A DNA stretch of 64,000 nucleotides from Dehalococcoidia bacterium (lineage in GTDB: Bacteria; Chloroflexota; Dehalococcoidia; Lucifugimonadales; UBA1127). The notes under the pieces are model-generated. The model worked only from the letters and a program-made list of their open reading frames with translations. It did not search any database and had not been told where the DNA came from. This document shows, in pieces, positions 1 to 36,759 of the stretch (within the stretch, counting starts at the first letter, position 1; every line of letters begins with the position of its first letter). Both the position numbers and the translations under genes were made by a program. The stretch lies in the NCBI GenBank assembly GCA_965249315.1, contig OZ252225.1, forward strand, positions 1,574,814 through 1,638,813, read 5' to 3'.

Positions 1-48
1 GGGTCCGCCCTCTCAGCCCGGCTCTCCGGACTCCCCCGTGGGGTTACC
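1..48 (-). ncRNA. TPP (THI-box) riboswitch, 5' half only; the element continues off the left window edge
   Basis: Minus strand reads CACGGGGGAGUCCGGAGAGCCGGGCUGAGAGGGCGGACCC. This matches the conserved 5' half of TPP riboswitches (GGGG.GC, P3 hairpin, GCUGAGA, ACCC). The ACCUGAUC/GGGA 3' half would lie beyond position 1. Confidence 0.5.
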
Positions 49-64
49 TTCAGTTGTTGGCGCA

Positions 65-94
65 AGCATACGGCGGCAGCGTCAGACGTGTCAA
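65..94 (-). promoter_or_regulatory. Candidate sigma-70-type promoter driving the TPP riboswitch leader
   Basis: Minus strand has TTGACA (89-94), an 18-nt spacer, then TATGCT (65-70), about 15-20 nt upstream of the riboswitch start. Confidence 0.4.
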
Positions 95-167
95 CTCGGA
101 GACTACCTTGCAACTCTAGCCCACGCTTCCGTCAGTGACCGAAGGTTCCGGCGCCCTCCCGGGCGGG

Positions 168-890: not shown

Positions 891-913
891 GATGTGCTCG
901 ATTGAATACTGGT

Positions 914-2251: not shown

Positions 2252-2355
2252 CGTTGCTCTCTATCGTCTCTTTCTAGTCATGGCAGAATGCTACCACGAC
2301 GGAGAAGCCCCCTCAACGGACAGATGGGACCAGCAGAGCAACAGTCCGGGGATTG

Positions 2356-18746: not shown

Positions 18747-19991
18747 ATGGACACCAACGCGACCGGGTGGCGAGGGTGGCTCCTCCGGGCCCTCCTGCTG
18801 GCCCTCTTCCTCGTCCTCCTCCGCACCGACGACCACCGCCTCTCCCCCGCGACGGACGCCGCCTCCGCGCACCTGTTCGCCGTGGAAGAGTGGATCGTCG
18901 AGAACATGGAGGACAAGTGGCGCCATAAGGCGCGCCGCCTCCTCCCCACGCAGGGCCTCTCCCGGGACGAGCAGATCGAGCGGATGGATGAGCTCTTTGA
19001 GGTCCAGGAGGACGTGCGCTCCATCCGGCGGAGCATCGCCCGTGCGGCCGCGACGGACACCGCCCTCGACCGGGAGACCATGGACAGCTTCGAACGCCGC
19101 CTCTCCTCGCTCCTGGAACGGCGGGAGGCCCTGCGAGACGACGTTGAGGCGCTACTGGAGAGCGAGTTGTCCGCCGTCATCGCAGAGGCCGGCCTCCGGC
19201 GTGGGACGGGCCTGTTCCAGGCTGTCTTCCCGCCCGTCGACTTCCGCCTGGACTCCGCCCCCATGGTCCTGACCGTCTCCCCCCGGGACCGCATCCGGCT
19301 CGCCGGGACGGTCCTCCTGGACGGCGATGGAGAGGTGGCGGACTGGGAGGCGATAGAGGTGGCCTTGGCCCAGGAGCACAGCCTCTCCGCGCTGGTCCTC
19401 CCCATCTCCGGTCTTGCGGCCTACCCCTCCATCGTCTCCGGCACGCGAGACCTGCGGCGCACCCTGGAGATCGTCGCCCACGAGTGGCTCCACCATTACT
19501 GGTTCTTCCACCCCCTGGGCTTCAATTACTTCGCCTCCGCCGAAATGACCACCCTCAACGAGACGGCGGCGGACATCGCCGGTCGGGAGCTGGGAGATCT
19601 GGCCTACCATCGCCTGATGGGGAGGCCCCCGCACGAGCCCATCGTCCCTTCGCGGGCCGACACCGGTGAGAGGGTCTTCGACTTCGGCGACGAAATGCGG
19701 GAGACCCGCCGCACCGTCGACGCCATGCTGTCCCAGGGCCGTGTGACTGAGGCCGAGCAGTACATGGAGGCCCGCCGCCGCGTCTTCGTCTCCAACGGCT
19801 ATGCGATCCGAAAGATCAACCAGGCGTACTTCGCCTTCCACGGCACCTACGCGGAGAGCCCCGCCTCCGTCAGCCCCATCGCCGGCCAGCTCCACGAGTT
19901 GCGCGAACGCACCGCCACCCTCGGCGAGTTCGTCCGCACCGTCGCCCGCTTCAACACCTACGACGCCTTCCTGGCCTACCTGGAAGAGTGA
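18747..19991 (+). CDS. Membrane-anchored putative HExxH metallopeptidase (called gene A in the findings)
   Basis: An N-terminal TM segment (WLLRALLLALFLVLL) and HEWLHHYWF. Its last 125 nt are repeated three more times downstream. Confidence 0.6.
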   Translation: MDTNATGWRGWLLRALLLALFLVLLRTDDHRLSPATDAASAHLFAVEEWIVENMEDKWRHKARRLLPTQGLSRDEQIERMDELFEVQEDVRSIRRSIARAAATDTALDRETMDSFERRLSSLLERREALRDDVEALLESELSAVIAEAGLRRGTGLFQAVFPPVDFRLDSAPMVLTVSPRDRIRLAGTVLLDGDGEVADWEAIEVALAQEHSLSALVLPISGLAAYPSIVSGTRDLRRTLEIVAHEWLHHYWFFHPLGFNYFASAEMTTLNETAADIAGRELGDLAYHRLMGRPPHEPIVPSRADTGERVFDFGDEMRETRRTVDAMLSQGRVTEAEQYMEARRRVFVSNGYAIRKINQAYFAFHGTYAESPASVSPIAGQLHELRERTATLGEFVRTVARFNTYDAFLAYLEE

Positions 19992-20007: not shown

Positions 20008-21717
20008 ATGTTCAGTGTGCTAGCGGCTATGGCAACCCTTGCCGCCATTGGCTTGATCTTCGCGCTGGACCCGGGCGGGGTCATCGCCGAAAGCGGCTTC
20101 CCCGACTTCCGGGAGATGGACTGGAAGCAGCTTGTGGCGTGGGGCTTCCGTACGATAGGCGTCGTTGTAGCGCAGCTGCTCATTGTCGTGCTGTGGCTGT
20201 GGACCAAATTCAGGGACCAGCACGGGACCGAAGCGCAGCGGCGCCCTTCGTACCCGGCGGACCCGCCCACCGGTTCACTGCCGGCGGCAGCGGTATCTGC
20301 CCTGCAGGACCACATGATATGGGGCCATACGCTGCTCGCTTCCATCATCGAGATGTGCCAGCGCGGCACACTCAAATTGGAGTGCGTCGGAACGAGGAGT
20401 GGCTTCCTGTACCGGCTTTCTCCGCAGGGCCCCGCACAGCATGACTGGGAGCAAACGATATGCGACAGCCTGCCGTCTCGCCCCACAACGATTGATGAGT
20501 TGGATGAAGCGATAAGCAAGCACAAAGATGCCATCGGCGACCAGATAGGCGACTACCTGCAGCACCGTGGTCTCTTCCATGACAACCCCGTACGTGACAG
20601 GAGGGAGAATCTCGGGAGTGGTGCCGGATGGGCCATTCTGGCCGGGGCCTTGATGGGCGTGGCTGGTGGGCTCTGGATGGCCCTATGGCTGTCCCAGTGG
20701 TGGGCGAACGCCCTGATCGGCGCGTTCATAGGCTTTGTCTATATGCTGATTGCTCCTATGGCGTCGTACGTGGCGCCGACAACGCCGAGGGGGGCTCACG
20801 AGATAGAACAGTGGCTTGGCTGGAAAGAGACCGCGGCCGGGTCCGCTCGTCCCGGCGCCCAGGACGAGGCCGACTCCATGTTGGCCTATGCCGTGGCCCT
20901 GGACGTGGCCCGGCCATGGCTCGACCTCTCCGTCCCGGCCCCGCCGTGGTTCCAGGCATCTTTCCTACGAGGTGCCGAACCGGACGCGGCCTATCACGCC
21001 TTTCTGCACGAATCGGTCTGGGGCCTGGCTGGACGGTCCCAGGACGCGGCGAAAGCGGCGGCAGAGACGGACGAGGCAACAGAGGCCGAACTGCTCGATC
21101 TGGAGTCGGCGGGTACCCGGAAGGCATCTGACCGCGAGATCGCCGACGAGATTGAAGAGATTGATCGTGAACTGGAGGCGCAGGGCAGTCCTCCGGCAGC
21201 CACCCCGAGGTCGGCGCCGATGGAGTATCAGCGGCACAGGCGGGATCGGGCGGTCAAGGAGGAGAAGGGCGGCGGCTGTCTCCCCGGCTGCCTCGTATGG
21301 GTCGTGGGCCTGCTGGGCATAGGGGCCCTTGCCCTGGTCGTCCTGTTCAGCCTCGACGTGCTCTCGCCTCGCGACAAGCCGTGTCCCCTGACCTCTCCCC
21401 CGATTCCGACGCCCGCGCTGATTGCGACAGCCGGTGATCTGTTCCGCAATGAGTGTGTGAGGGTCCGCGGCACGATAGTGTTCCAGGCCGCCGGCGAGCT
21501 GGTGGTGGAGATGGACCGGGGCGAGTACGTGCAGCGCGTGAACGTCAGCGACCCCGCTGAGGTACTCCAAGCAATCCCCCTGGGCCGCGTGGTGACCCTG
21601 GCTGGGTGGCTCAGAGTGGAGGAGGACGGGACATACTCAGTCCACTTCATACCGGACCATGGAGCAGACCGCGAGTGGTGGCGGAACCTCCTGGAGAACC
21701 TCGAAGGGCTGTTCTAG
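20008..21717 (+). CDS. Multi-pass membrane protein, DUF2207-like (cassette 1 cargo)
   Basis: ATG 20008 follows GGAAAGAAGGGAAG. Several TM segments, an acidic linker and a C-terminal soluble domain. Confidence 0.55.
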   Translation: MFSVLAAMATLAAIGLIFALDPGGVIAESGFPDFREMDWKQLVAWGFRTIGVVVAQLLIVVLWLWTKFRDQHGTEAQRRPSYPADPPTGSLPAAAVSALQDHMIWGHTLLASIIEMCQRGTLKLECVGTRSGFLYRLSPQGPAQHDWEQTICDSLPSRPTTIDELDEAISKHKDAIGDQIGDYLQHRGLFHDNPVRDRRENLGSGAGWAILAGALMGVAGGLWMALWLSQWWANALIGAFIGFVYMLIAPMASYVAPTTPRGAHEIEQWLGWKETAAGSARPGAQDEADSMLAYAVALDVARPWLDLSVPAPPWFQASFLRGAEPDAAYHAFLHESVWGLAGRSQDAAKAAAETDEATEAELLDLESAGTRKASDREIADEIEEIDRELEAQGSPPAATPRSAPMEYQRHRRDRAVKEEKGGGCLPGCLVWVVGLLGIGALALVVLFSLDVLSPRDKPCPLTSPPIPTPALIATAGDLFRNECVRVRGTIVFQAAGELVVEMDRGEYVQRVNVSDPAEVLQAIPLGRVVTLAGWLRVEEDGTYSVHFIPDHGADREWWRNLLENLEGLF

Positions 21718-21790
21718 GTGGCGCTCCACCACTGCCACCTCCGCTAGAGCCTGACCGTCAGTCACCGCCGAGGTCCTGCTGGCTCCCTGG

Positions 21791-21833
21791 TCACCACACG
21801 GCCTTGAGTCCGACCACTGCTGCCGTCAGCCCC
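21791..21833 (-). repeat. Scar of a crcB 3' end (last ~11 codons plus stop)
   Basis: Minus strand reads TAAVVGLKAVW*. Compare the intact crcB end ...GLTAVVVGLKVGQALKAVW* at 25949-26010. Confidence 0.7.
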
Positions 21834-21947
21834 ATCGCCGGCCAGCTCCACGACCTGCGACAGCGCACGGCCACCCTCGGCGAGTTCGTCCGCACCGTCG
21901 CCCGCTTTGACACCTACGACGCCTTCCTCGCCTACCTGGAACAGTAA
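21823..21947 (+). repeat. Copy b of the 3' end of gene A (125 nt, frame and stop preserved)
   Basis: Aligns to 19867-19991 with 11 mismatches by eye. It encodes VSPIAGQLHDLRQRTATLGEFVRTVARFDTYDAFLAYLEQ*. Confidence 0.9.
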
Positions 21948-22005
21948 GCCCGCAAGGGCCTGCCCCCAATGTGCTCCGTGGTACACTCAACCGCTCCGCC
22001 GAGCA

Positions 22006-22893
22006 TTGGAGGACCAACCCATAGCTCCTAGTGACGGTTTCTACTGGGCCTTTCTGGCTCTTCTAGGCTGGGGCTCCGCCGATTACCTGGCGCGGTCCGC
22101 GTCCGGTCGATTCGGAAGCGTGAGCGTCACGCTGCTTACCCTCACCATTGGACTGGCGGCGCCCCTTCCTTTTGTGCTCGTGGAAATCTCCCAGGCGTCG
22201 CTGGCAGTGGACTGGTCGGAGTTGGCAGTCTGGGGGCCGGTGACTGGAGGGTTCCTCGGAGTCGCCTACCTCGTCTACTACACTGGCCTGCAGCGGGGCT
22301 CCGTTACGGTGGTGTCCGCTACGGCCTCTGCCTGGCTGGCGGTCACTGTGGTGATTGCGGTTGTCGCCTTTGGAGAGAGCCTCTCGCTGGGCCAGGTGGG
22401 GCTAATGGCCGTCATTCTCCTGGGGATACTCATGCTGTCGGCCGGCCGGGTGACTGGGATGGGTGTGAGAACCGGCCTGGGTTGGGGGCTTGGGGCCATG
22501 CTAACGATCGGTGTCGCCTTGGGGTTGATTGACCAGGTGACTGAAGCGGCTGGCCCCATGTTGGCCGTGCTTGTCGTCCGGGCGGTCTCCATCGTCCCGA
22601 CCTACGCGTTTGTGAGGCTGAAGAGGGTGGACGTGCGGCGTCCTACCGACCTGAGGGGCTGGACGTTGCTCGTAGCCGTGGGTCTTCTCGACGCTGGAGC
22701 CTACGTGGCATACAACCTGGGCGTGGACAGCGCGCCCGTGGCTGTGATAGCTCCCATCGCCGCGGCCCATCCGGTGGCCACAATTGCGCTGGCCGTAGCG
22801 CTGAGTAGGGAGCGGCCCCATGCCCTCCACTGGGCGGGCGCCGCAGCCGCCATCGGGGCGACCGTCGGTCTCAGCATTTTGGTCGGCGCTTGA
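22006..22893 (+). CDS. EamA/DMT-family transporter (cassette 2 cargo)
   Basis: Ten predicted TM helices and a duplicated EamA-like pattern (GWGSADYLAR...). The start is uncertain: TTG 22006 is chosen, and the ORF is open from 21907 inside repeat b. Confidence 0.7.
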   Translation: MEDQPIAPSDGFYWAFLALLGWGSADYLARSASGRFGSVSVTLLTLTIGLAAPLPFVLVEISQASLAVDWSELAVWGPVTGGFLGVAYLVYYTGLQRGSVTVVSATASAWLAVTVVIAVVAFGESLSLGQVGLMAVILLGILMLSAGRVTGMGVRTGLGWGLGAMLTIGVALGLIDQVTEAAGPMLAVLVVRAVSIVPTYAFVRLKRVDVRRPTDLRGWTLLVAVGLLDAGAYVAYNLGVDSAPVAVIAPIAAAHPVATIALAVALSRERPHALHWAGAAAAIGATVGLSILVGA

Positions 22894-22907
22894 GGGGAGC
22901 GCCGGTG

Positions 22908-22991
22908 CGCACCGCCACCCTCGGCGAGTTCATCCGCACCGTCGCCCGCTTCAACACCTACGACGCCTTCCTCGCCTACCTGGAAGAGTGA
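22908..22991 (+). repeat. Copy c of the 3' end of gene A (84 nt)
   Basis: 2 mismatches against 19908-19991. It encodes TATLGEFIRTVARFNTYDAFLAYLEE* and begins 14 nt after the EamA stop. Confidence 0.9.
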
Positions 22992-23015: not shown

Positions 23016-24464
23016 TTAGCTCCGTTGTGGCGGGGGTGGGGGAGTCTCGGAGTAGAGCCAGGCGTCGAAGAGTTCATCGAGCTCCTTGCCCGAGACGTCT
23101 TCCGCCACCTCTATGAAGTCGGCGGTCGACGCGTTGCCTCCTCCATGGCGAGATAGGAACTCGCGGAGAATAGCGAAGAAGTCCTCGTCGCCTACTTCCT
23201 CCCTCAGGGCGTGGACCACCAGGGCGCCCCTGTCATAGACCCAGGCAAATGGGGACTCCGGAAGGGGTTTCCCCGGCGGGCCCATCTCGTCCGTCCACAT
23301 CGCATCCCAAAACCGATCGAACGCATCGCTGTCGTGCCGGTGTTCATACCACAACCATTCCGAGTACGTCGCGAACCCCTCGTTCAGCCACAGGTCTTCC
23401 CACGTCGCGGGCGTCACCAGGTTGCCGAACCAGTGGTGGGCCAGTTCGTGGGCCACGACTATCTCGCCAAACCCACCTGAGAGCATGTTCGCGCCGTACA
23501 CCGGCCTAGTCTGTGTCTCCAGCGCCAGGAACTCCGTGTCAATGACGATTGCGCCGAATGCCTCAAAGGGGTACTCGCCGAAGGTATCGTTGAAGAACTC
23601 CAGCATCTCGAACACGTCGTCCAGGCCGAATACCGCCGACGGGTCCAGCGTCACTTCGATGTAGTCGACAATCGGTAGTCCCTTCGGGCCATCCGTGGTT
23701 CTTCTGTGAAACTGCCCAATCGCCATGCCCACTAGGTAGCTTGCCACCTCGTCACGCACTTCCCACGTGTACGTGCTCTTGTCCCCGTGATCGACGACAT
23801 CGACGAGCTCGCCTATCGCAGCAACCTCGTTGGGGTCCGGGACCGTCACCACGATCGTGTAGGTAGCCTTGTCCGAGGGATGTTCGTTGACCGGATGCCA
23901 GGTCGACGAACCCCACGGTTCGCCCGCCGCGAAGATGCCCGTCTCATACTTCACCCAACCCATCCGGTAGCCGAAGCCCGGAAGGATTTCGGTCAGGGGT
24001 TGCCCCTCGAATGCCACGTCCGCAGTGAAGGATGAACCGCGCGGAATGGCTTCCTGCGGTGTTACCGTCAGCTCGTTGCCATCGCGCGTGTGCGTTGCGG
24101 GCCGATCGGACACACGCGCCTCAATGACGTGCAGCCCGCGCAGATCCAGGTTGAACGCCGAAAGCGCTTGGGTCGCCTTGGCCTCGATACTGGCCTCGCC
24201 GCGAATGAAATTCGCGTCAACGTCGACATCCAGATTGAGTGTGTAGTGTGAGACTTCGTAGCCGCCGTTGCCCAAGCCTGGATACAGCGGGTCGCCCAAG
24301 CCTGCGGACCCCGGCGAGGGCCCCTCCACCGGGCGACAACCCACAAGCAGCAGCATCGCCAGAGCGAGTGTTGCGAGTGGTGGGACTGCTGGAATAACCT
24401 GGGGGCGCTTCACCGGACCTATCTCCATGGCAATCGGCGTTGAACACTCCAAGCGAATGTCCAC
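23016..24464 (-). CDS. M1-family zinc aminopeptidase, probable lipoprotein (cassette 3 cargo)
   Basis: HELAHHWFGNLVT...WLNEGFATY (HExxH-18-E), a GAMEN-like region, and N-terminal LLLVGC. Confidence 0.85.
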   Translation of the reverse strand: MDIRLECSTPIAMEIGPVKRPQVIPAVPPLATLALAMLLLVGCRPVEGPSPGSAGLGDPLYPGLGNGGYEVSHYTLNLDVDVDANFIRGEASIEAKATQALSAFNLDLRGLHVIEARVSDRPATHTRDGNELTVTPQEAIPRGSSFTADVAFEGQPLTEILPGFGYRMGWVKYETGIFAAGEPWGSSTWHPVNEHPSDKATYTIVVTVPDPNEVAAIGELVDVVDHGDKSTYTWEVRDEVASYLVGMAIGQFHRRTTDGPKGLPIVDYIEVTLDPSAVFGLDDVFEMLEFFNDTFGEYPFEAFGAIVIDTEFLALETQTRPVYGANMLSGGFGEIVVAHELAHHWFGNLVTPATWEDLWLNEGFATYSEWLWYEHRHDSDAFDRFWDAMWTDEMGPPGKPLPESPFAWVYDRGALVVHALREEVGDEDFFAILREFLSRHGGGNASTADFIEVAEDVSGKELDELFDAWLYSETPPPPPQRS

Positions 24465-24479: not shown

Positions 24480-24833
24480 CTAGCAGTCGACCAACCCCTT
24501 TGCCCTTAGCTCAGCGTATACTCTCCGGTTGTAGGCGTAGTAGTCCTCCCTGGCCTGCCTCTCTGTCGCCTCATCGGCGTCACCTGGAATCACGTACCCG
24601 TCCCTCGGAGCCTCCAGACCTTCGACCCGCCCGTCAGCATAGATCCTCACGTGTCTTGGGTTGGTCATGCGGTGCTCGGCATAGTAGTCGAGATAGTCCT
24701 CCTCGAACACATACGAGATGGACCATCCAGCTTTGTTTATTCTGCCGGGCCGCCTTAGCGTAGTGGCGTCCAGGGGCAGCTGGATGTTCCAGCTAGCGAA
24801 CGACTCGGCGAAGATTCTATGGATGTTGTCCAT
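24480..24833 (-). CDS. Hypothetical protein (cassette 3 cargo)
   Basis: Start chosen at MDNIHRIF; the maximal ORF reaches 24893. No family recognised. Confidence 0.4.
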   Translation of the reverse strand: MDNIHRIFAESFASWNIQLPLDATTLRRPGRINKAGWSISYVFEEDYLDYYAEHRMTNPRHVRIYADGRVEGLEAPRDGYVIPGDADEATERQAREDYYAYNRRVYAELRAKGLVDC

Positions 24834-24902
24834 CTGCCCCCCTGCTGGCTCGTCGCAGCGCCTCGTCGACTCCCAGCGGAGGGGCCTGCGCATGAGGGCT
24901 CC

Positions 24903-24977
24903 TCACCCCTGCGCCAGCAGCCACCCCAGGAGCGCGTCCACGAACGTGTCGCCGTAGCCGGGCGCATGGCCGCTGCC
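24903..24977 (-). repeat. Copy e of the 3' end of an absent gene B (alpha/beta-hydrolase-like C-terminus)
   Basis: Minus strand encodes GSGHAPGYGDTFVDALLGWLLAQG*. It is homologous to 26466-26539. Confidence 0.8.
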
Positions 24978-25063
24978 AGCGTACGGCCACCCTCGGCGAG
25001 TTCGTCCGCACCGTCGCCCGCTTCAACACTTACGACGCCTTCCTCGCCTACCTGGAACAGTGA
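24978..25063 (+). repeat. Copy d of the 3' end of gene A (~86 nt)
   Basis: Encodes TATLGEFVRTVARFNTYDAFLAYLEQ* and abuts copy e with no spacer. Confidence 0.9.
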
Positions 25064-25099
25064 GGGCGCAGGATCTCACCCGTTGCAGACTCCGAACGA

Positions 25100-25885
25100 C
25101 TATCCCGTCTCCGCGTGGGCCTCCACGGTCACCTCTATTTCGGGCGGTTGAAGAACGACGGCAGATTTCTTCTGCAAAACCTCAAGGTCTATGGCGCGGA
25201 TCTTCTCATCCGCCGCCTCGGCAGCATGGAGGGCATCCTGCTTCGCGTTAGCCTGAGGCACGAAATGGCTGCCAAAAATCACCATTGGGGCGACCTCGCT
25301 CGCTACAGCGACAGTCAGGATAATGCATGCAGCTGGCCGATAGGCTAGCCCAACTGTAGAGTCCTTTGGTGAATCGTGGGGACGAGGTTCGATACTCGGA
25401 CCTGGATGAATGCCGTACTTGCTTAGCAGCTGATATGCGTCCTTTCTCATTCCAGGCTTGATATTCAGCCTCGCCAGCTTGAGTCTCACCTTCGAGGCGC
25501 TGTACCGATTCTTCCTGCCGCCCTCATCCCTTCGCCACTCCTTATAGTCCTCACTGGAACGCGCGAAGAGGTTCAACAGGTTCGCGGTCTCAGCTAACTG
25601 CCTGAACACCCCGAGGGCCTGATCCATGTAACCCCTCTTGAGCAAGAGAAGAGCGGCGGAGGCATTCGCTGAAGATCGACCCAAGAGATGCTGCTCCTCA
25701 TGATCTCCTCCCCTGCAACCCCATCTACATGAGGCGATACCGTCTAGCCACCACAGCAACTCTCCTAGGGCATCAAGGACTCCTCCCATCCCCAATTCCG
25801 AGACCCACGCGTCGAACAACTCTTCGCAGAATTCTTCCCGAATGTGAATGGCTTGCAACTGATAACGCTTCTTTCCAATTTCCAT
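25100..25885 (-). CDS. Hypothetical protein, AT-richer (cassette 4 cargo)
   Basis: 261-aa ORF. The segment AALLLLKRGYMDQALGVFRQLAETANLLNLF resembles the helical cores of DUF5677/AbiV-like proteins, from memory only. Confidence 0.45.
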   Translation of the reverse strand: MEIGKKRYQLQAIHIREEFCEELFDAWVSELGMGGVLDALGELLWWLDGIASCRWGCRGGDHEEQHLLGRSSANASAALLLLKRGYMDQALGVFRQLAETANLLNLFARSSEDYKEWRRDEGGRKNRYSASKVRLKLARLNIKPGMRKDAYQLLSKYGIHPGPSIEPRPHDSPKDSTVGLAYRPAACIILTVAVASEVAPMVIFGSHFVPQANAKQDALHAAEAADEKIRAIDLEVLQKKSAVVLQPPEIEVTVEAHAETG

Positions 25886-25948
25886 ATCAATTGGCTCCAG
25901 GCTAGATATGCTCCTACAGTTGGTACCCTATGGCGAGCGTCCCCCTGG

Positions 25949-26374
25949 CTACCACACGGCCTTGAGTGCCTGCCCGACCTTGAGCCCGACCACCACCGCG
26001 GTCAGCCCAACCGCCACCTGAAGCACCACGTTCGCCGAGCCGGCGAGGTAGGCCTGGTCTCTGAACAACCTGATCGTATCCATGCCGAACGCCGAGAACG
26101 TCGTAAACCCCCCGAGCACGCCTACGAGCAGGAATGCCTGGACCTCGGGGCTCAGCGGCTTATGCGTCTCCGCGAACCCCACAACCAGGCCGATGAGGAA
26201 ACAGCCCGCCGCGTTCACAGCCAGGGTCCCGTAGGGAAACCCCGAGCCGCTCAGCCCCCCATTCAGCCACACCACCACCAGGTAGCGCGCCATCGCCCCG
26301 ACCACACCCCCAGCCCCGACCCAAAGAATCAGCAAGCCTCGTCTATCCCCCCTTCCACAGTGCGCCGCCTCCAA
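25949..26374 (-). CDS. crcB: Fluoride ion channel CrcB/FluC (cassette 4 cargo)
   Basis: GGFTTFSAF motif and four TM helices. The protein is slightly long at the N-terminus, so the true start may be internal. Confidence 0.85.
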   Translation of the reverse strand: MEAAHCGRGDRRGLLILWVGAGGVVGAMARYLVVVWLNGGLSGSGFPYGTLAVNAAGCFLIGLVVGFAETHKPLSPEVQAFLLVGVLGGFTTFSAFGMDTIRLFRDQAYLAGSANVVLQVAVGLTAVVVGLKVGQALKAVW

Positions 26375-26465: not shown

Positions 26466-26539
26466 CACCCCTGCGCCAGCGGCCACCCCAGCAGCGCATC
26501 CACGAACGTATCGTCGTAACCGGGTGCGTGGCCGCTGCC
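26466..26539 (-). repeat. Copy f of the 3' end of absent gene B
   Basis: Minus strand encodes (VVWTGD)GSGHAPGYDDTFVDALLGWPLAQG, and the original stop is lost. Confidence 0.8.
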
Positions 26540-26610
26540 GTCGCCCGTCCAGACTACGCTCGTGCCGGAAGCCGGAGGCCTTCCACAACAACCCCCCTCG
26601 ACCGGCAGGG

Positions 26611-27060
26611 CTAGCGGACTGGGTCAGGTGGCGTCAGATTGTCCGCTTCGGTGACTAGCTCGGTCAGCACGACCAAGTCGAGGTCTTCAAGGCGTCGGAA
26701 CCCGATGCTTGCTGCGCCGAGCTTCACCTTTCCGAGGCGATCGGCGTAGCTGTGGGCGAGGTAGGCATTGTTGACCGCAGCGTTGACGTAGATGCTGTAG
26801 TTCCTCTTCTGCCGAGCGAGGCCGACGAGGAACCACTCGACGGTATCTCCCGTTGAGTTCCTCTGGTCGATGTGGCCGTACCCAATGATGGACTGTTGTG
26901 TGCCGCCCCAGAACACGCCCTCCCAGAGCACCCGTTGGCGGCTAGGCAGCGCACCGTGGATCGCTCTGTCAACCGATGTCAGGGTGTCGCGATGCTCGTC
27001 GGGAAGCGAAGCTAGGTAGGCGTCCGGGGCGGTGTCGACGATTCGCATCGACTGGCTCAT
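26611..27060 (-). CDS. DUF1801 (YdhG-like) domain protein
   Basis: Pattern LPDEHRDTLTSVDRAIHGALP...WGGTQQSIIGYG...YSIYVN is typical of DUF1801. Confidence 0.6.
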   Translation of the reverse strand: MSQSMRIVDTAPDAYLASLPDEHRDTLTSVDRAIHGALPSRQRVLWEGVFWGGTQQSIIGYGHIDQRNSTGDTVEWFLVGLARQKRNYSIYVNAAVNNAYLAHSYADRLGKVKLGAASIGFRRLEDLDLVVLTELVTEADNLTPPDPVR

Positions 27061-27318
27061 GTCCCTGCCTCCGCGTTGTCAGTGCGGTGCTTCTCAGTAG
27101 GGGTGATTGTAGCGCAGGATGCCACCAGATAAGAGCTTGGGCTATCCTGACGGGCATGGCGAGTGTGGAGCCTCGGCCTCTCAAGCCGTCTACTTCGCAG
27201 CCCACGCTTCCCATGGTGGACCCTTCGGCCGCCCGCCCGCAATCGCCACTCACCCGTCACGCTGCAGGCGACGCCCCCTCCCCTCCCCCCTCCTCTCGGC
27301 CATGGCCTTCGTTCTAGC

Positions 27319-27693: not shown

Positions 27694-27890
27694 AGCTGAA
27701 CGTCGACAAGGAAGCTGATGCCCTCTACCTGCGCCTCGACGACTCCCCTATAGTCGAGTCCGAGGAGGTCTCGCCGGGCGTGGTGCTTGACTACAACGAG
27801 TCGAACGAGGTGGTGGGAGTGGAGATGCTGCACCTGTCAAAGCGCTCTTCTACCCTCAATCTCTCTGTGCTGCAGTTTGAGACGGCATGA
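27690..27890 (+). CDS. DUF2283-family putative antitoxin
   Basis: DKEADALYLRL...ESEEVSPGVVLDYNESNEVVGVEMLHLSKR is the canonical DUF2283 pattern. Confidence 0.7.
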   Translation: MKLNVDKEADALYLRLDDSPIVESEEVSPGVVLDYNESNEVVGVEMLHLSKRSSTLNLSVLQFETA

Positions 27891-27956
27891 CCGCCGCGGG
27901 GACGGCCGCCCGAGCGTAGCCCCGCCATACTGACCGCGGTCCCCACTCGACACGGC

Positions 27957-29006
27957 TCACGCCCCTTCCCCTCCCCCCTCCTCCCCGATGCGCGCCGCCT
28001 CCAGCGCCGGGTCCTCCACCCCCAGCGCGGTCATGGCCCGGTGGCGGCTGTGCAGCCCGCCCTGCACCAGCAGCAGCTCCTCCCGGACCAGGCGTCCCCG
28101 GTCCTGCGGCAGGATCGGGCCCCAGGCGACGTTCAGCCGCACGGGGCGGTACCGCTCCCCCGTGTACTTCTCCAGCAGGCGAAGGGCCATGTCGGCGCGG
28201 CGCTTGTAGGTCGTGCTGCGGATCAGCCGCTTGCGACGCACCCGCTGGAGGAGGGGGTGCAACTCCATCTCCAGCGCCACGCCCGAGAGGTTCCGCGCAT
28301 TGTCGCCAAAGGCCGTCCGCGGCGCTTCCGACAGGTCGTGCAGCGCCCGGTAGAGCAGGTCGATGAACTCCGTGTGCAGCCGCACGCCGCCCCCGTGGAG
28401 CAGGTCCAGCAGGTAGGCCCGCGCCCGCTCCGGCAGCTCCCAGACGGCCCCCGGCTGTACCGCGATGTCCCGCGCCTCCTCCACCCCCTCCAGCACGGCG
28501 ATGGGGTTGCCGGACAGCTCCAGGATCGTCGAGAGCTGCGAGAAGGCCCGGTTCAGCTCCCGCTGCGGCTCCACGAGCGGAGGAATGTCGGAGAGCCCCC
28601 AGAACTTCTTCGGCTCCCGAAGGTTCGGGAAGAGGACGAAGGGTATCGCCCCGTAGGGGTTCGCCCGCTCCTCCAGCAGCAGGTCGTCCAGCCACAGGCT
28701 GAAGGTCTGCTCCGTCCACACCTCCACCACGACGACCTCCGCCCCCTGGGGCGTCACGCCGTAGAGCGCTTCCGCCTCCTCCGACGTCAGTCGGTAGCGG
28801 CTGGCCACCCGCCACGTCCGAGAGAAGTCGTCGCCCACCCACCACGCGAACATCCCCTGCACGTCCGGCGCCGTGATGCGCACCGTCTCCGACTCCGGGT
28901 CCCAGGTGACCTTGTAGCAGCCGTCTCCGAGGATGGAGGCGTCCACCTCCGTCTCGTAGTCCATCTGCGCCAGCTGCTGGGGCACGGTGAGCCGTGTCGT
29001 GACCAT
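27957..29006 (-). CDS. Phage portal protein (short form)
   Basis: SPP1-Gp6-like portal core (FPNLREPKKFWGLSDI...LSGNPIAVLEGV...GVALEMELHPLL). It has its own AAGGGAGG RBS 6 nt before the ATG. Confidence 0.7.
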   Translation of the reverse strand: MVTTRLTVPQQLAQMDYETEVDASILGDGCYKVTWDPESETVRITAPDVQGMFAWWVGDDFSRTWRVASRYRLTSEEAEALYGVTPQGAEVVVVEVWTEQTFSLWLDDLLLEERANPYGAIPFVLFPNLREPKKFWGLSDIPPLVEPQRELNRAFSQLSTILELSGNPIAVLEGVEEARDIAVQPGAVWELPERARAYLLDLLHGGGVRLHTEFIDLLYRALHDLSEAPRTAFGDNARNLSGVALEMELHPLLQRVRRKRLIRSTTYKRRADMALRLLEKYTGERYRPVRLNVAWGPILPQDRGRLVREELLLVQGGLHSRHRAMTALGVEDPALEAARIGEEGGGEGA

Positions 29007-29035
29007 TGCATTCCTCCCTTGTTCCTAGTAGCCGC

Positions 29036-29067
29036 CCGCTCACCCTGAGCCTGTCGAAGGGTCGTCG
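29036..29067 (+). repeat. 32-bp perfect direct repeat, copy 1 (CCGCTCACCCTGAGCCTGTCGAAGGGTCGTCG)
   Basis: Identical to 31656-31687. Confidence 0.9.
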
Positions 29068-29081
29068 CCCCTCCCCCCAGC

Positions 29082-29429
29082 TTACGCGGCTGACCGCCCG
29101 CCGTTGGCCCGCTGCAGGGCCCGGAAGACCGTTCGCTTGCTCACCCCGAACCGGTCCGCCAGCTGCGTGACCGACAGCCCCTCTCGACTGCGAAGCCGGC
29201 AGATCGAGCGGTCACGCTGCGCCCGACGCTCGCGGTGGTACCACCCCGGCTCGTCGTGCTTGCACTGCGGCAGCGGGCATCGAAGGCAGGACGGCGCGAC
29301 GTTGCAGCCGTCGTCCCTGTAGGTGTAGTGCTCCGGGAGGGTGTCCAGGAGCAGCGGCCGCGGCCTGCGCCGGGGTGCGCCCAGTCCTCCGTGTCGAGCG
29401 TGCTCCGTTGCCACCGATATGAGTTCCAT
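29082..29429 (-). CDS. Small Cys-rich protein with a C-terminal helix-turn-helix
   Basis: C-terminal GLSVTQLADRFGVSKRTVFRAL is a resolvase/sigma-like HTH, and a CxxC cluster lies upstream. Confidence 0.55.
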   Translation of the reverse strand: MELISVATEHARHGGLGAPRRRPRPLLLDTLPEHYTYRDDGCNVAPSCLRCPLPQCKHDEPGWYHRERRAQRDRSICRLRSREGLSVTQLADRFGVSKRTVFRALQRANGGRSAA

Positions 29430-29489
29430 CTTCCCCCCTTGGACCGAGACCTTTTGCGAAAGGGCCTTCGCGCACAGAGAGCGCTTGCC

Positions 29490-30896
29490 CTAGGCCCGCA
29501 CGAGCAACGGATCGGTGCTCGCCTCCGCCCGGCCCCGGGCGATACGGGGCTGGCGCTCTCCCGCCTTCACCAGGAGTGCGGCGCTCACGAGGAAGTCGTC
29601 GTGTCCCTGGGAAGGCGAAACGAAGAAGTCCACCGTCTGATTGGGCCGGTAGCGCGCCTGGGCCATCTCCGCCTCCCGCCAGAACTCCTGGCACTCCGGC
29701 GAGCCGTCCGACGCGTACATCTGCAGTCGCCCCGTGTTGACCGCCGCCAGCAGCTCGAACGCCAGGCGCGACTTGCTGGCCTGGGTGAAGACGAAGGGCT
29801 CCACAGCACCCCCCAGGGCCTTGGTGAGGAGGCTCGCCACGCCGGCCCCCACGCCCGTCGCGTCCACCACGACGCGGCGGCAGCGCCACACCCGACGCAG
29901 CAGGTCCGCCAGTCGGGGCGCCAGCGCGTGGTGCGGCTCGCCCCGCCACCAGTACTGCTCCACGATTCGCAGGCGCGGTTCCGGCGCCAGGCCGGTGCTG
30001 TTGACGAAGTCCACCGCGCCGATGGTGAGCACCGTCGCGTCGCGCCTCTCCGCGCGCCCGTCGCCCTCGGGCCGGTCGCCCCACGGTTCGCCGGCCAGGT
30101 CCAGGCCTGCCACGTACGTCCGACCGGCCACGGGCGCCGGCAGACGGGCGTGGTCCCCCTGGAGCTGGGCGCGCTGGCCGGCGGTGAACAGGCCGTCGCC
30201 TCCCGCCACGGGCAGCAGCCGGTACTGCGTGCGGAACAGCGGGTGCTCCTCCCCCAGCCGCGCCCGCTCCGACTCCACGTACAGGCGGTACAGCGGGTTG
30301 TGCGCGGCCACCGTCTCCCAGTCGAAGCGGAAGTGCCGCCGCACCCCGTCTCGCGCCTCGAGCTCCCGGCCCTCCTCCGCCATCGCCTCCAGCAGCGTGT
30401 GACGGTCCCACGGCGTGCCGTACAGGACGGTCGTCGCGTTCGTCGACGCCCCCATGGGCCGGAACGCCTTGGCGAACCGGTCCGACTCCACGTCCTGCGC
30501 CTCGTCCACCTCCAGGAGGACGCTCGCCGTCGCCCCCACCACGTTCGCCGAGGGCTCCGCGCTGAGAAACAGCTGCTGGGCCCGCCCCAGCCGGATGCCG
30601 TTCGCCTGCTCCGGCGACCACACTCCGCCGTAGCCCGCGTCGTCCAATCGCTGCTTGAGGCGCTGCATGCTGATCACCGCCTGCGGGAGGAACGTCGGCG
30701 CGGCCTTCACCAGGCTTCCGCCGGAGGCCATGTGCAGCGTCAGCAGCAGCAGCTCCAGCTGCGCCGACAGCTCCTTCTTGCCTCCCTGCCGGGCCATCTC
30801 CACAGTGAACACGCGGCCGCGACGCCGGAGCACGCTCTCCATCACGGCGCGCCCCACCTCGGTCTGGTACGGTCGCAGGTGTTGAGTGATGGGCAT
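29490..30896 (-). CDS. Phage terminase large subunit
   Basis: Walker A-like ARQGGKKE, Walker B LLEVDEAQD, and a C-terminal RNase-H-like nuclease (VVVDATGVGAGV). ATG 30896 follows GGAGGAGG. Confidence 0.8.
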   Translation of the reverse strand: MPITQHLRPYQTEVGRAVMESVLRRRGRVFTVEMARQGGKKELSAQLELLLLTLHMASGGSLVKAAPTFLPQAVISMQRLKQRLDDAGYGGVWSPEQANGIRLGRAQQLFLSAEPSANVVGATASVLLEVDEAQDVESDRFAKAFRPMGASTNATTVLYGTPWDRHTLLEAMAEEGRELEARDGVRRHFRFDWETVAAHNPLYRLYVESERARLGEEHPLFRTQYRLLPVAGGDGLFTAGQRAQLQGDHARLPAPVAGRTYVAGLDLAGEPWGDRPEGDGRAERRDATVLTIGAVDFVNSTGLAPEPRLRIVEQYWWRGEPHHALAPRLADLLRRVWRCRRVVVDATGVGAGVASLLTKALGGAVEPFVFTQASKSRLAFELLAAVNTGRLQMYASDGSPECQEFWREAEMAQARYRPNQTVDFFVSPSQGHDDFLVSAALLVKAGERQPRIARGRAEASTDPLLVRA

Positions 30897-30919
30897 GGGA
30901 CACCTCCTCCTTCTGTTGT

Positions 30920-31159
30920 TCAGAGCACCAGGCGCAAGACCACCTGGACGAGCGCCGCGCCGACGACGAGGAAGATGAGGCCGTTCACTCGCTCCTTCAG
31001 TTCCCCCACCGCCGACTCCAGCGAGCACATGCGCTGGTCCAGCAGCGCCTCGAACGTGCTCCCCGGCCCCAGGTCGACCTCCCCTGGCAGCGCGGCCGTT
31101 AGGGGTTCCGCGCTCTTCCGAAACCGCCGCAGCGTCTGGTGAAGCCGCTCAGACGCCAT
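30920..31159 (-). CDS. Small phage-module protein with a C-terminal TM helix
   Basis: 79-aa ORF ending LIFLVVGAALVQVVLRLVL, translationally coupled to its neighbours. Confidence 0.4.
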   Translation of the reverse strand: MASERLHQTLRRFRKSAEPLTAALPGEVDLGPGSTFEALLDQRMCSLESAVGELKERVNGLIFLVVGAALVQVVLRLVL

Positions 31160-31655: not shown

Positions 31656-31687
31656 CCGCTCACCCTGAGCCTGTCGAAGGGTCGTCG
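31656..31687 (+). repeat. 32-bp perfect direct repeat, copy 2
   Basis: Identical to 29036-29067. Confidence 0.9.
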
Positions 31688-34737: not shown

Positions 34738-35147
34738 GCCCCCTCCGAATGCGCGTCGTAGCTCCCGCAGCGCCCCATTCTAGCCCACGCCGCCCGAAGG
34801 GCGAAAGGACGGTAGGGATTCAGGAGAAGTACAAGGGATGAGATGGATGGTTACAATGGTGGCGTGATGTGTGCACTCCGAGTTTCCGCAGCCATGATAG
34901 AATGGGACTTGGGGGGGATTGACCGAGTTCCACTAAAGCCTTAAGAGATCCCTACTCTTCTCCCGCGGAGCCGCGGAACAGCATCTGCTGCTTGAGGTTG
35001 GCGGCGAACCAACGTTGTGTCCGGTCCAGAACCAGATCCGCCGCACGATCGACAGTGGCAGTCTGCGCGGGGCAGCCGCGGCCATCATCTAAGTGCCCAC
35101 ATCAGGCCTTGGTCCCCGCCTCTCAACTTGGGACTAAAGGAGGAGGC

Positions 35148-36164
35148 ATGCCGAGACACTCCTTCAACACTTTGATGCGGCGACTAGCTCACTCAGGATT
35201 CAGGAAGCAATTCGTATCGACTGCTCTGATGCCAGATTGGTGGGAGGAGTCGTATGCTCAGGATTCGACGGTGTTACCAGAGGTTGAGATTCGCATTGCC
35301 CGCTTCTTGAATGTTCCTCTTTCCGTAGTCAGAGACGCTGAAACAGAACTAGCACCTCCAGTCTATGGGGATGCCCAGTTGAGGAGAGTGCGTGATATCG
35401 ACCGAGGCAGATTGGGACCTGCGATCCACACTGCGATGCGAGTCGCTGAAGCCGTGATTCGAAACCTACGATGTACCCAATCGAAGCCATCTCAACTTCC
35501 CGACAACGCTCTCGAGTGGAGAAGGATCCTTAGATCAAGGAGTAGTGGCCCAGTACAGTTGGATGACATACTCTGTGCCCTCTGGGCGAATGGAATTCCA
35601 GTCATCCCCATCGACACGTTACCTGCACCTGGCTTTCAAGGGCTGGCCTGTATCGTCGACGGCCATCCCACGATCGTCCTCGGGCAAAAGTACGACGAGC
35701 CGAGTCACGTGGCGTTCATTGTGGCCCATGAAGCGGGGCACATTGCCTCTGGTCATTGCTCGCTTCGGATGCTGGTTGTAGACCAGGACAAAGACATTAG
35801 AGACGGTTCAGAGGTGGAGCGTGCAGCAGACTGTTTCGCGAAGCGTCTGCTGGTAGGAGACGAGACCGTGACGATCCCGGTCCAAGAACAATTGGATGCA
35901 AAGAGCCTTGCGGAACGAGCCGTTGACCTTGAGAGTGAGTATGGTGTAGATGCTGGATCTCTCATATTCACCTGGGCGGCGAGCACACTCAACTATCCCG
36001 CAGCCTCACTGGCGGTAAGAGCCTTATATCGGTCAACAGGTGCTCGTCGTCAAATGAGGCAGCTCTTTGACAGATACATCGACTCCGGTTCTGCTTCGGA
36101 GAGCGACAGAACTCTCTTGCGGTGTGTATATGGCGGAACAGAGCCTCCAGCGGCTACTGCTTGA
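35148..36164 (+). CDS. ImmA/IrrE-like (M78) zinc metallopeptidase with an N-terminal extension
   Basis: HEAGHIASGH (HExxH) in the context FIVAHEAGH, typical of COG2856. ATG 35148 follows AAAGGAGGAGG. Confidence 0.7.
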   Translation: MPRHSFNTLMRRLAHSGFRKQFVSTALMPDWWEESYAQDSTVLPEVEIRIARFLNVPLSVVRDAETELAPPVYGDAQLRRVRDIDRGRLGPAIHTAMRVAEAVIRNLRCTQSKPSQLPDNALEWRRILRSRSSGPVQLDDILCALWANGIPVIPIDTLPAPGFQGLACIVDGHPTIVLGQKYDEPSHVAFIVAHEAGHIASGHCSLRMLVVDQDKDIRDGSEVERAADCFAKRLLVGDETVTIPVQEQLDAKSLAERAVDLESEYGVDAGSLIFTWAASTLNYPAASLAVRALYRSTGARRQMRQLFDRYIDSGSASESDRTLLRCVYGGTEPPAATA

Positions 36165-36759
36165 TACTGACGCGTATTGCAAACTCGGCAGCGCTGGGCT
36201 CCTTGCCGATGCCATGGCAGTCCTTGACGTTCCTATTTGTACCTGCGGCAGGTTGGCCGCCCTTCCATATATGCTCAGACGGGGAGGTCTACGAAGGAAG
36301 TTCGGTGATTACACATCCGACCAACTTGCGCGTCTAGCCGAAACACTGCCTGTCGCTCTAGCACCTGGAGATGATTGGCTGGACCCGCTTGCCACCGTGC
36401 CTTCGATAGACCCAGGGGAGGCCCAACTTCTGGCAGCCTCAGCAGAGCATGGACTGTTGGTACTCACCGGAGACAAGAGGGGACTGATCGGCGTCAAGGA
36501 CATACCTGGCTACGCTCAAGCGTTGGACGGACACATCATCGTACTTGAAGCAATCCTGGCTGAACTGTGTATGCGATTAGGGGAAAGCACAATTCGCTCA
36601 CGAATCGGCCCTGTAATGGAAGTGGACATCGCTGTTAGGAACTGCTTCTCGGGTTCAGGTTCGTGCTCGACAGTCGCACTAATATCCTACTACCAACACC
36701 TTGCGGTCGACCTTCAACCTCTACGCTTGTGGAAACCACCATCTCTCGGAGCGAAATGA
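36130..36759 (+). CDS. PIN-like domain protein (putative nuclease)
   Basis: Acidic residues are spaced as in PIN folds: LLLDTDAY..., IDPGEAQLLAAS, LVLTGDKR. It overlaps the ImmA gene by 35 nt. Confidence 0.45.
   Translation: MAEQSLQRLLLDTDAYCKLGSAGLLADAMAVLDVPICTCGRLAALPYMLRRGGLRRKFGDYTSDQLARLAETLPVALAPGDDWLDPLATVPSIDPGEAQLLAASAEHGLLVLTGDKRGLIGVKDIPGYAQALDGHIIVLEAILAELCMRLGESTIRSRIGPVMEVDIAVRNCFSGSGSCSTVALISYYQHLAVDLQPLRLWKPPSLGAK

What the first reader, a model, noticed from the sequence alone, without database searches (positions are those of the whole stretch)
21791..21833. crcB tail fused to a gene-A tail through an 8-nt microhomology
**The scar.** On the minus strand, 21791-21833 encodes TAAVVGLKAVW*. 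These are the last codons and stop of a CrcB channel. Compare the intact crcB at 25949-26010: GLTAVVVGLKVGQALKAVW*. About 10 nt past the stop are also similar (ctggtcaccacacgg versus ctggctaccacacgg).

**The join.** The scar runs into repeat copy b through the octamer GTCAGCCC (21825-21832). That octamer is present in both parental sequences (crcB gcggtcagcccaac; gene A tccgtcagccccat).

**Interpretation.** This is the footprint expected of a microhomology-mediated illegitimate join. It also implies that a crcB-bearing cassette, like cassette 4, once occupied this position and was overwritten.
Basis: seen in the sequence. Interest (0 to 1): 0.6.

Follow-up and report, generated by a model that had tools for sequence, protein, structure and literature searches.

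The report
Dead crcB end fused to gene tail
A 42-base leftover of the end of a fluoride-channel gene (crcB) is welded through an 8-base overlap to a spare copy of the end of a neighbouring gene; it is a real, inherited scar of sloppy DNA joining in a fast-changing gene island of a Dehalococcoidia bacterium, and as a mechanism it is ordinary.

Summary
Window 21791-21832 (minus strand) is a relic of the last 14 codons and the stop of crcB. It matches the intact crcB end at 25943-26008 far better than chance (score 42; 5000 shuffles give 14.5 +/- 2.6, maximum 29). It carries one 18-nt deletion between CCTTGAG repeats. It abuts copy B of the gene-A tail exactly at GTCAGCCC.

The same junction occurs in two independent metagenome assemblies. 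In one of them (L036) it is pristine: crcB-type bases lie left of the octamer and gene-A-type bases lie right of it. So this is a genuine, inherited, microhomology-mediated illegitimate join.

The joint reads equally well as the border of a duplicative insertion whose partner is the crcB that still sits 4 kb downstream.

The region is a flexible island downstream of a conserved gene in one Dehalococcoidia clade. It also holds other tail relics (esterase, SET) and single-gene cassettes flanked by gene-A tails. The short tail copies all start within 0-4 nt of each other, and no recombinase was found. That is unexplained, and it is the more interesting lead.

The parts
18747..19991 (+). Gene A. 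It is 414 aa from Met48 of the ORF that starts at 18606. It has an N-terminal hydrophobic stretch and an HEWLH (HExxH) motif. It has no Pfam or NCBIfam family. Its last 125 nt (19867-19991) are the parent of the tail copies.
   Evidence: homologues are called at 414 aa
20008..21717 (+). DUF2207-family membrane protein. It is the usual downstream neighbour of gene A in relatives.
21719..21774 (.). Spacer of unknown origin between the DUF2207 stop and the crcB-derived sequence. It is shared with L028 and L036.
21775..21790 (-). Probable remnant of the native spacer 3' of crcB (CCTGCTGGCTCCCTGG). Compare 24841-24852 and 25943-25948.
   Evidence: read directly from the sequence; short, so tentative
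21791..21832 (-). crcB 3' relic (the scar). It consists of the stop plus 13 codons (GLTAAVVGLKAVW*) and carries an 18-nt deletion between CCTTGAG repeats.
   Evidence: also present in L028 and L036
21825..21832 (.). GTCAGCCC, the 8-nt microhomology at the crcB/gene-A joint.
21825..21947 (+). Gene-A tail copy B. It is 123-125 nt and runs through the stop TAA at 21945-21947. About 14 nt of gene-A-type downstream spacer follow it.
22006..22893 (+). EamA/DMT transporter ('cassette 2'). The segment 21977-22899 is 88.6% identical to an unrelated chromosomal locus (L038). In L036 this slot holds a leucine-rich-repeat lipoprotein gene instead.
22907..22991 (+). Gene-A tail copy C (85 nt). It is collinear with the gene-A tail plus M1 peptidase of L029.
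23016..24464 (-). M1-family peptidase.
24480..24833 (-). orf117-like gene of unknown function. In L029 and L036 it lies directly next to crcB.
24903..24975 (-). Relic of the 3' end of a PHB-depolymerase-like esterase gene, fused to tail copy D. An orthologous relic lies next to orf118 in L035.
   Evidence: (D2)
24976..25063 (+). Gene-A tail copy D (about 88 nt). It is part of a 1.0-kb insertion (24914-25936) that L036 and L029 lack.
25083..25120 (+). Remnant of the start of a SET-domain gene. SET follows DUF2207 in L001, L032 and L034.
25100..25885 (-). DUF5677-like gene (weak Pfam match).
25949..26335 (-). Intact crcB (128 aa). It is the parent or partner of the scar.
26466..26610 (-). Second esterase 3' relic. 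Its stop codon is lost.
   Evidence: (D2)

Best explanation
Window 21791-21832 is a non-functional copy of the last 60 nt of crcB, later shortened by an 18-nt slippage deletion. One illegitimate recombination event joined it, inside the shared octamer GTCAGCCC, to the last 125 nt of gene A.

The joint is the left border of a block of DNA that was added downstream of geneA-DUF2207. That block runs from the gene-A tail through M1 peptidase and orf117 to crcB. The joint arose in one of two ways. It may be the novel joint of a duplication running from the gene-A tail to the crcB tail. Or it may have formed during a one-sided-homology insertion, anchored in the body of crcB with the free end joined illegitimately. 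Either way, the intact crcB 4 kb downstream is the partner copy, and no separate crcB cassette had to be destroyed.

The joint is old. It is inherited by at least three strains and has since travelled between lineages by homologous recombination.

Shown: the crcB origin, the octamer crossover, the inheritance, and the absence of mobile-element ends.

Inferred: the order of events, and the choice between duplication and insertion.
For: - crcB origin and significance: (D15).
- Pristine junction in L036: crcB-type GCG lies left of the octamer and gene-A-type CAT lies right of it. Outside the 18-nt gap the scar is identical to L036's own crcB end.
- Same junction in L028 from a different sample and assembler, with the stop codon mutated there as expected of a pseudogene.
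- All 27 close CrcB homologues inspected keep VVGL[KR]xGxxL[KR]..., so the short VVGLKAVW end is a secondary deletion between CCTTGAG repeats.
- The first 40 nt of tail B are 100% identical to the gene-A allele of L029. L029 has the order geneA-M1pep-...-orf117-crcB, and window tail C-M1pep-orf117 and crcB are collinear with it at 89-93% nt identity.
- The joint has the polarity downstream sequence -> upstream sequence, which is what a duplicative event gives.
- No integrase, transposase, inverted repeats or target-site duplication lie around it.
- An 8-nt overlap is in the range seen at genuine bacterial rearrangement junctions (PMC3411829) and at homology-facilitated illegitimate recombination joints, which span 3-10 bp (PMC6382021). 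My own arithmetic from the base composition gives about 3e-5 for 8 matching bases at a fixed register.
- The joint is ancient. Between the window and L036, divergence is 0.6% up to 21784 and 8% from 21791 through tail B. A donor lineage therefore carried the same joint.
Against: - No relative shows an intermediate: neither DUF2207 next to a whole crcB, nor two identical duplicated units.
- The DNA between tail A and the scar (DUF2207) is unrelated to the DNA between tail B and crcB, so at least one further replacement must be assumed.
- The 50-nt spacer 21719-21768 has no identifiable source.
- The short tail copies C and D, and one in L034, start at nearly the same base. This hints at a site-specific process in this locus, which could in principle also have made joint B.
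- Parental sequences are inferred from present-day copies.
Confidence: 0.65

Rival explanations
1. A complete second crcB cassette, and with it a second complete gene A downstream, once lay after DUF2207. A later microhomology-mediated deletion from inside crcB to inside gene A 'overwrote' them, leaving only the two tails.
For: The junction itself cannot tell a deletion joint from a duplication joint. The island clearly gains and loses genes. The 16 nt left of the scar's stop resemble the native crcB 3' spacer, so the copied or retained piece extended beyond the gene.
Against: It needs an unobserved second full gene A plus a full crcB, and then a deletion. None of the genomes with 68-93% identical gene A shows a second full copy. 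A direct duplicative joint gives the same sequence in one step.
Confidence: 0.22
2. Joint B is an off-target product of an unidentified site-specific cassette system. That system uses the end of gene A as its recombination site, as in integrase-driven accretion of islands or an integron-like array.
For: The island holds single-gene units bounded by gene-A tails. Three or four short tails with different left flanks begin within 0-4 nt of one another. Between strains, cassette 2 is exchanged exactly between the stop codon of tail B and the start of tail C. Dehalococcoides is known for tandem islands bounded by repeats of the ssrA 3' end, some without an integrase (PMC3146451).
Against: Copy B starts 40 nt further left than the others, at a plain microhomology with crcB. 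No recombinase gene lies in 19.9-27.9 kb or in the relatives' islands. There is no attC-like hairpin and no conserved arm sequence left of the tails.
Confidence: 0.1
3. The similarity is chance in GC-rich DNA, or a chimeric assembly.
For: GC-rich sequence gives many short matches (one search lists dozens of 9-14-nt hits).
Against: The score lies far outside the shuffles and outside the rest of the window. The reading frame and stop are preserved. The junction was recovered in two other assemblies from other samples. An 8-nt overlap is too short to mislead an assembler.
Confidence: 0.01

Closest known systems
Microhomology-mediated illegitimate recombination joints (spontaneous duplications and deletions in bacterial chromosomes)
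   Same: Two unrelated parental sequences are joined inside a short shared run that is present once at the joint. There are no element ends. An 8-bp overlap falls in the range that separates real junctions from chimeras in Salmonella (PMC3411829).
   Different: Here the joint is fixed and old, and it is shared by diverged strains. It sits in an island where similar tail relics recur.
Homology-facilitated illegitimate recombination (HFIR) during uptake of foreign DNA
   Same: There is a one-sided homologous anchor plus a 3-10-bp microhomology join at the other end (PMC6382021, citing de Vries & Wackernagel 2002). It would explain a displaced 3' end beside a restored gene.
   Different: The anchor and the donor cannot be demonstrated here. 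Natural competence is not known for these uncultured Dehalococcoidia.
Dehalococcoides ssrA-specific genomic islands (tandem islands bounded by repeats of the 3' end of the target gene)
   Same: Same bacterial class. A conserved single-copy gene is followed by tandem strain-specific units, each bounded by a direct repeat of the gene's 3' end. Some units lack integration genes (PMC3146451).
   Different: There the repeat is 20 bp of a tmRNA gene, and 16 islands carry a serine-integrase module (DsiB) at their left edge. Here the repeats are 85-125 nt of a protein-coding gene, the units are single genes, and no integrase was found. Joint B itself is not at the common boundary.
Integron gene-cassette arrays
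   Same: Tightly trimmed, mostly single-gene units are separated by a repeated site of about 60-140 nt (my own knowledge of integrons).
   Different: There is no IntI. There are no R''/R' core sites (RYYYAAC / GTTRRRY) in the 85-nt repeat (read directly). There is no significant hairpin. The repeat is a genuine coding end, conserved at protein level across Dehalococcoidia.
Prophages that insert into the 3' end of a protein gene and supply a replacement end (phage 21 / e14 at icd; my own knowledge)
   Same: They leave a displaced, non-functional 3' end of the target gene beside a restored gene.
   Different: Those events are integrase-mediated at a fixed site. Here there is no integrase, and the displaced crcB end is joined at a microhomology.

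Membership tests
CrcB / fluoride channel (PF02537) - relic of | Sequence homology to the C-terminal helix and stop of a CrcB gene | tested here: met
   (score 42 against shuffles 14.5 +/- 2.6); the L036 scar is identical to its own crcB outside the 18-nt gap
CrcB / fluoride channel (PF02537) - functional member | Complete CRCB domain | tested here: not met
   The scar keeps only 13 codons plus the stop. The resident gene 25949-26374 matches 103/103 profile positions with E = 2.3e-27.
Microhomology-mediated illegitimate join | Both parental sequences are identifiable, and a short identity present in both occurs once at the joint | tested here: met
   GTCAGCCC in crcB (26001-26008), in gene A (19869-19876) and at the joint (21825-21832); flanking bases in L036 are parent-specific
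Microhomology-mediated illegitimate join | No transposon ends, target-site duplication or recombinase at the joint | tested here: met
   None was found; absence within the window only.
Microhomology-mediated illegitimate join | The joint is reproducible in independent data | tested here: met
   L028 and L036, from different samples and assemblers
Tandem-duplication joint | The joint links a downstream chromosomal point to an upstream one | tested here: met
   The crcB end (downstream of gene A in L029, L036 and the window) is joined to the gene-A tail.
Tandem-duplication joint | The two units on either side of the joint have the same content | tested here: not met
   Unit 1 is DUF2207. Unit 2 is EamA/LRR, M1pep and orf117. 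Later replacement has to be assumed.
Homology-facilitated illegitimate recombination | Homologous anchor on one side of the insert | not testable with these tools
   The recipient and donor genomes are not available. The resident crcB body would be the anchor.
Integrase-driven island accretion (ssrA-GI-like / cis-mobilizable elements) | Units bounded by direct repeats of the 3' end of the target gene, with a constant insertion point | tested here: inconclusive
   Repeats are present. There is a constant left end for copies C, D and L034, but copy B, the one in this finding, starts 40 nt further left.
Integrase-driven island accretion (ssrA-GI-like / cis-mobilizable elements) | Site-specific recombinase encoded in or beside the array | tested here: not met
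   and the gene tables show none within 10 kb
Integron cassette array | IntI integrase with attI next to the array; attC sites with core sites and a folded bottom strand | tested here: not met
   No integrase. Fold z-scores are -0.3 to -2.1. No RYYYAAC/GTTRRRY pair in the repeat (read directly).

The most novel reading that the evidence does not exclude
The end of gene A (about 85 nt plus about 15 nt of spacer) serves as the recombination site of a cassette system that has not been described and has no recombinase in the array. It would operate in a clade of uncultured Dehalococcoidia. Tightly trimmed single genes (EamA, an LRR lipoprotein, SET, DUF2207) would be inserted and exchanged exactly between the stop codon of one tail and a fixed start point of the next. 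The crcB scar would record one imprecise event of the same machinery.
Probability: 0.15. Interest if true: 0.75.

Novelty: new member of a known kind. Interest (0 to 1): 0.38.

Why it matters
By itself the scar is a clean, population-verified example of a microhomology joint that became fixed. One strain still shows the unmutated junction, which is useful as a dated marker of how this island was built.

Its larger value is as an entry point. It shows that the stretch downstream of gene A in these streamlined, uncultured Dehalococcoidia is assembled from pieces that keep the 3' ends of their former neighbours. It also shows that copies of the gene-A tail now act as portable homology, through which whole genes are swapped between strains that are otherwise 99-100% identical. 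If the coincident tail boundaries prove to be enzyme-made, this would be a cassette system without a known recombinase.

Tried and rejected
- Chance or artefact: rejected.
- A natural short CrcB C-terminus: rejected. All 27 close homologues I read carry the six extra residues.
- A relative with crcB next to DUF2207 or directly after gene A: not found. I checked 27 genome loci and the contexts of 8 close gene-A homologues. In the genome of L035, crcB lies about 340 kb away.
- Exact look-up of a window protein: not on record.
- Scan of JGI metagenomes and IMG/VR for the tail core: no match.
- Integron or attC reading: rejected.
- Promoter inside the tail as a reason for its spread: no sigma-70 match.
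- Known RNA families, including a fluoride riboswitch upstream of crcB: none; only a sub-threshold TPP hit.
- Source of the 50-nt spacer 21719-21768: not found.
- tRNA-type integration site: no tRNA in the island or in the relatives' islands.
- Extra tail copies in distant Dehalococcoidia: none.

Full report
**What is at the coordinates**

On the minus strand, 21791-21793 is a stop codon, and the preceding codons read (M)GLTAAVVGLKAVW. The intact crcB at 25949-26374 is a full match to Pfam CRCB (E = 2.3e-27). It is called at 128 aa in close relatives, and it ends VGLTAVVVGLKVGQALKAVW*.

At the DNA level, 21785-21832 aligns with 25943-26008 as 25 nt at 92%, then an 18-nt gap, then about 24 nt. 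The gap lies between two CCTTGAG repeats of the intact gene, which is the signature of a slippage deletion. All 27 close CrcB homologues I read keep the six extra residues, so the short ending is secondary and not a natural variant.

I scored only the 40 nt left of the octamer. The score against the crcB end is 42. In 5000 shuffles the mean is 14.5, sd 2.6 and maximum 29. The best unrelated tile of the whole window, on both strands, is 28.

**The joint**

GTCAGCCC lies at 21825-21832. From there to 21947 the sequence is a copy of the last 123-125 nt of gene A (native 19867-19991), including a stop codon. Both parents contain the octamer.

The decisive evidence comes from relatives. A protein search with gene A and context look-ups gave three contigs of near-identical strains.
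- L028 (another sample, short-read scaffold) has the same DUF2207-spacer-scar-tail B sequence at 98% identity. Its former stop codon is mutated, and the contig breaks inside the repeat.
- L036 (a long-read contig, 96.7% identical over 5.9 kb) has it too.
- In L036 the scar reads CCCTGGCTACCACACGGCCTTGAG[18-nt gap]TCCGACCACCACCGCG-GTCAGCCC-CATCGCC. Outside the gap the left part is identical to that strain's own crcB end, and the right part is identical to gene A.

The crossover is thus pinned inside the octamer. The window's own copy has since picked up four substitutions just left of it.

An 8-nt overlap matches what is seen at verified spontaneous rearrangement joints in Salmonella (cut-offs of 7-9 bp against chimeras; PMC3411829). 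It also matches the 3-10 bp reported at homology-facilitated illegitimate recombination joints (PMC6382021). No inverted repeats, target duplication, transposase or integrase surround it.

**The setting**

The window is from a Dehalococcoidia (Chloroflexota) chromosome. Gene A is a conserved 414-aa protein with an HExxH motif and no family assignment.

In relatives with 68-93% identical gene A, the left flank is syntenic: EF-G, ETF alpha/beta and a coiled-coil protein. To the right of a variable stretch lies a conserved esterase-portal-HTH-terminase block. The variable stretch differs from genome to genome:
- L001: DUF2207-SET-NUDIX-DUF1801
- L032: DUF2207-SET-permease
- L035: DUF2207-DUF998-orf118-HicB
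- L029: M1 peptidase-DUF998-orf117-crcB-vWA...

It is therefore a flexible island. crcB is cargo, not a fixed resident. In the genome of L035 it lies about 340 kb away, among amidohydrolase genes.

**How the window's island is built**

- Tail C plus M1 peptidase plus orf117, and then crcB, are collinear with L029 at 89-93% nt identity and with L036 at 95-97%.
- That block is interrupted, only in this strain, by a 1.0-kb insertion (24914-25936). The insertion carries an esterase 3' relic, tail D, the first ~40 nt of a SET gene, and a DUF5677-like gene.
- The slot between tail B and tail C holds EamA here and a leucine-rich-repeat lipoprotein gene in L036.
- Between these two strains, divergence is 0.6% up to 21784. 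It jumps to 8% from 21791 through tail B. It is total across the cassette and persists through the first ~45 nt of tail C.
- This is one homologous-recombination tract that swapped [scar-tail B-cassette-half of tail C]. The donor lineage therefore carried the same crcB|gene-A joint, so the joint is older than the strain-level divergence.
- Similar mosaic patches occur inside gene A (19062-19860) and DUF2207 (20860-21256).

**What made the joint**

The first 40 nt of tail B are identical to the gene-A allele of L029, the genome with the order geneA-M1pep-orf117-crcB. The joint links a point that lies downstream on the chromosome (the crcB end) to one that lies upstream (the gene-A tail). Two single-event routes give exactly this:

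(a) A tandem duplication of the segment from the gene-A tail to the crcB tail in an L029-like ancestor, with the novel joint at the microhomology.

(b) Insertion of an L029-type fragment into a chromosome that had crcB after DUF2207. It would be anchored by homology in the body of crcB, with its free end joined illegitimately 60 nt inside the resident crcB. That displaces the old 3' end and restores the gene.

Both routes need one more event to explain why DUF2207 plus a 50-nt spacer of unknown source now precedes the scar. The 16 nt left of the scar's stop resemble the orf117-crcB spacer. The copied crcB end had therefore once been next to orf117.

No sampled genome has a second full gene A. 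I cannot exclude it, because the joint sequence is the same under all three histories. I put about 0.9 on 'crcB relic joined once at the octamer', and about 0.65 on 'duplicative joint, no lost cassette'.

**The unexplained part**

Tail relics are a theme of this locus.
- Two esterase 3' ends are present (24903-24975 and 26466-26610), one of them shared with L035.
- Extra gene-A tails occur in L034, directly after the stop codon of SET, and in L032.
- Distant Dehalococcoidia have none.

Relics of 3' ends are what one-sided-homology insertions into convergent or tail-to-head gene pairs would leave.

Random joins do not explain one thing. Tail C in the window, tail C in L036 (which has a different gene on its left) and the L034 copy all begin at ...|GCGCAC(C/G)G.CACCCTCGGCGAG. 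Tail D begins 1-4 nt further left. The cassettes are also trimmed tightly. EamA matches its native locus (L038) only from 29 nt before the start to 6 nt after the stop. SET starts 17 nt after tail D and ends 1 nt before the L034 tail.

This looks like a defined recombination site. However:
- There is no recombinase in any of the islands.
- There is no attC-like fold.
- There is no conserved arm left of the tails.
- There is no promoter match.

The nearest precedent is the array of ssrA-bounded islands in Dehalococcoides. Those have 20-bp repeats and a serine integrase DsiB, and some units lack integration genes (PMC3146451). Copy B, the one in this finding, does not share the common boundary, so the scar itself is best read as an ordinary illegitimate join.

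**Verdict**

The 'overwritten cassette' inference is unproven and not needed.

The scar is a new instance of a known kind of event and is of modest interest on its own (0.38). The tail-flanked cassette architecture around it is the lead worth following. I give about 0.15 that it reflects an undescribed site-specific system.

Noticed in passing
window 22907, 24976; L036 (reverse complement) ~7164; L034 ~13553: The short gene-A tail copies begin within 0-4 nt of each other (...|GCGCAC...CACCCTCGGCGAG). Their left flanks are four different sequences: the EamA 3' end, an LRR-gene 3' UTR, the SET stop codon and an esterase relic. No recombinase was found.
   Followed up: partly
window 21949-22906 vs L036: The slot between tail B and tail C holds EamA in the window and a 347-aa leucine-rich-repeat lipoprotein gene in a strain that is 99-100% identical in the flanks. 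The exchange runs exactly from the stop codon of tail B to the start of tail C. Divergence is 8% from 21791 onward, which indicates a homologous-recombination tract.
   Followed up: yes
window 24903-24975 and 26466-26610; L035 14038-14109: These are relics of the 3' end of the esterase gene that bounds the island in relatives. The whole esterase is missing from the window. The first relic is fused to tail D with only about 3 nt of overlap, and it has an orthologue next to orf118 in L035.
   Followed up: partly
window 24914-25936: A strain-specific 1.0-kb insertion lies between the orf117-like gene and crcB, which are adjacent in L029 and L036. It carries the esterase relic, tail D, the SET start remnant and a DUF5677-like gene. 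Its left joint may use the 7-nt run CCCTGCG.
   Followed up: partly
window 25083-25120: The first ~40 nt of a SET-domain gene lie 17 nt after the stop of tail D. In L034 the 3' end of SET abuts a gene-A tail. SET therefore appears tail-flanked on both sides across genomes.
   Followed up: partly
window 21606-21947 (+): An open frame of 113 codons runs from inside the DUF2207 end through the spacer and the scar (antisense) into tail B. It ends with the last 41 residues of gene A and is intact in L036. Scar substitutions among the three strains fall mostly on third codon positions, which coincide in both frames. The sample is too small to call selection.
   Followed up: partly
window 19062-19860 and 20860-21256: Patches of 76-94% identity lie inside gene A and DUF2207, against strains that are 99-100% identical elsewhere (L028, L031, L036). 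This indicates frequent recombination with diverged lineages.
   Followed up: partly
window 26603-27156 vs L001 14070-14637: The DUF1801 gene and its upstream region are inverted relative to L001. The adjacent esterase relic is not inverted. The rearrangement was not reconstructed.
   Followed up: no
L038 5685-10888: The native locus of the EamA gene (91% aa identity) also carries DUF1801 and a xanthine/uracil permease. These are gene types that turn up as island cargo in L001, L032 and the window.
   Followed up: no
window 27856-31028 (-): A portal-HTH-terminase cluster is conserved at the right edge of the island in all close relatives. It looks like a prophage or GTA-like remnant, and no integrase was seen with it.
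   Followed up: partly
window 29036-29067 and 31656-31687: An exact 32-nt direct repeat (CCGCTCACCCTGAGCCTGTCGAAGGGTCGTCG) flanks the terminase region. One copy is also matched in L001.
   Followed up: no
window 1-3000 and 35000-38000: Two low-GC stretches (0.55-0.58 against about 0.68) were seen. The first carries GmrSD-type restriction domains (168-2251). The second carries an M78-like peptidase and a 'Beta protein' family gene. These are likely acquired defence islands.
   Followed up: no
window 25508-25623 (-): A sub-threshold TPP riboswitch match (30 bits against a gathering score of 54) lies inside the DUF5677-like gene and is probably chance. No fluoride riboswitch lies upstream of crcB.
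   Followed up: no
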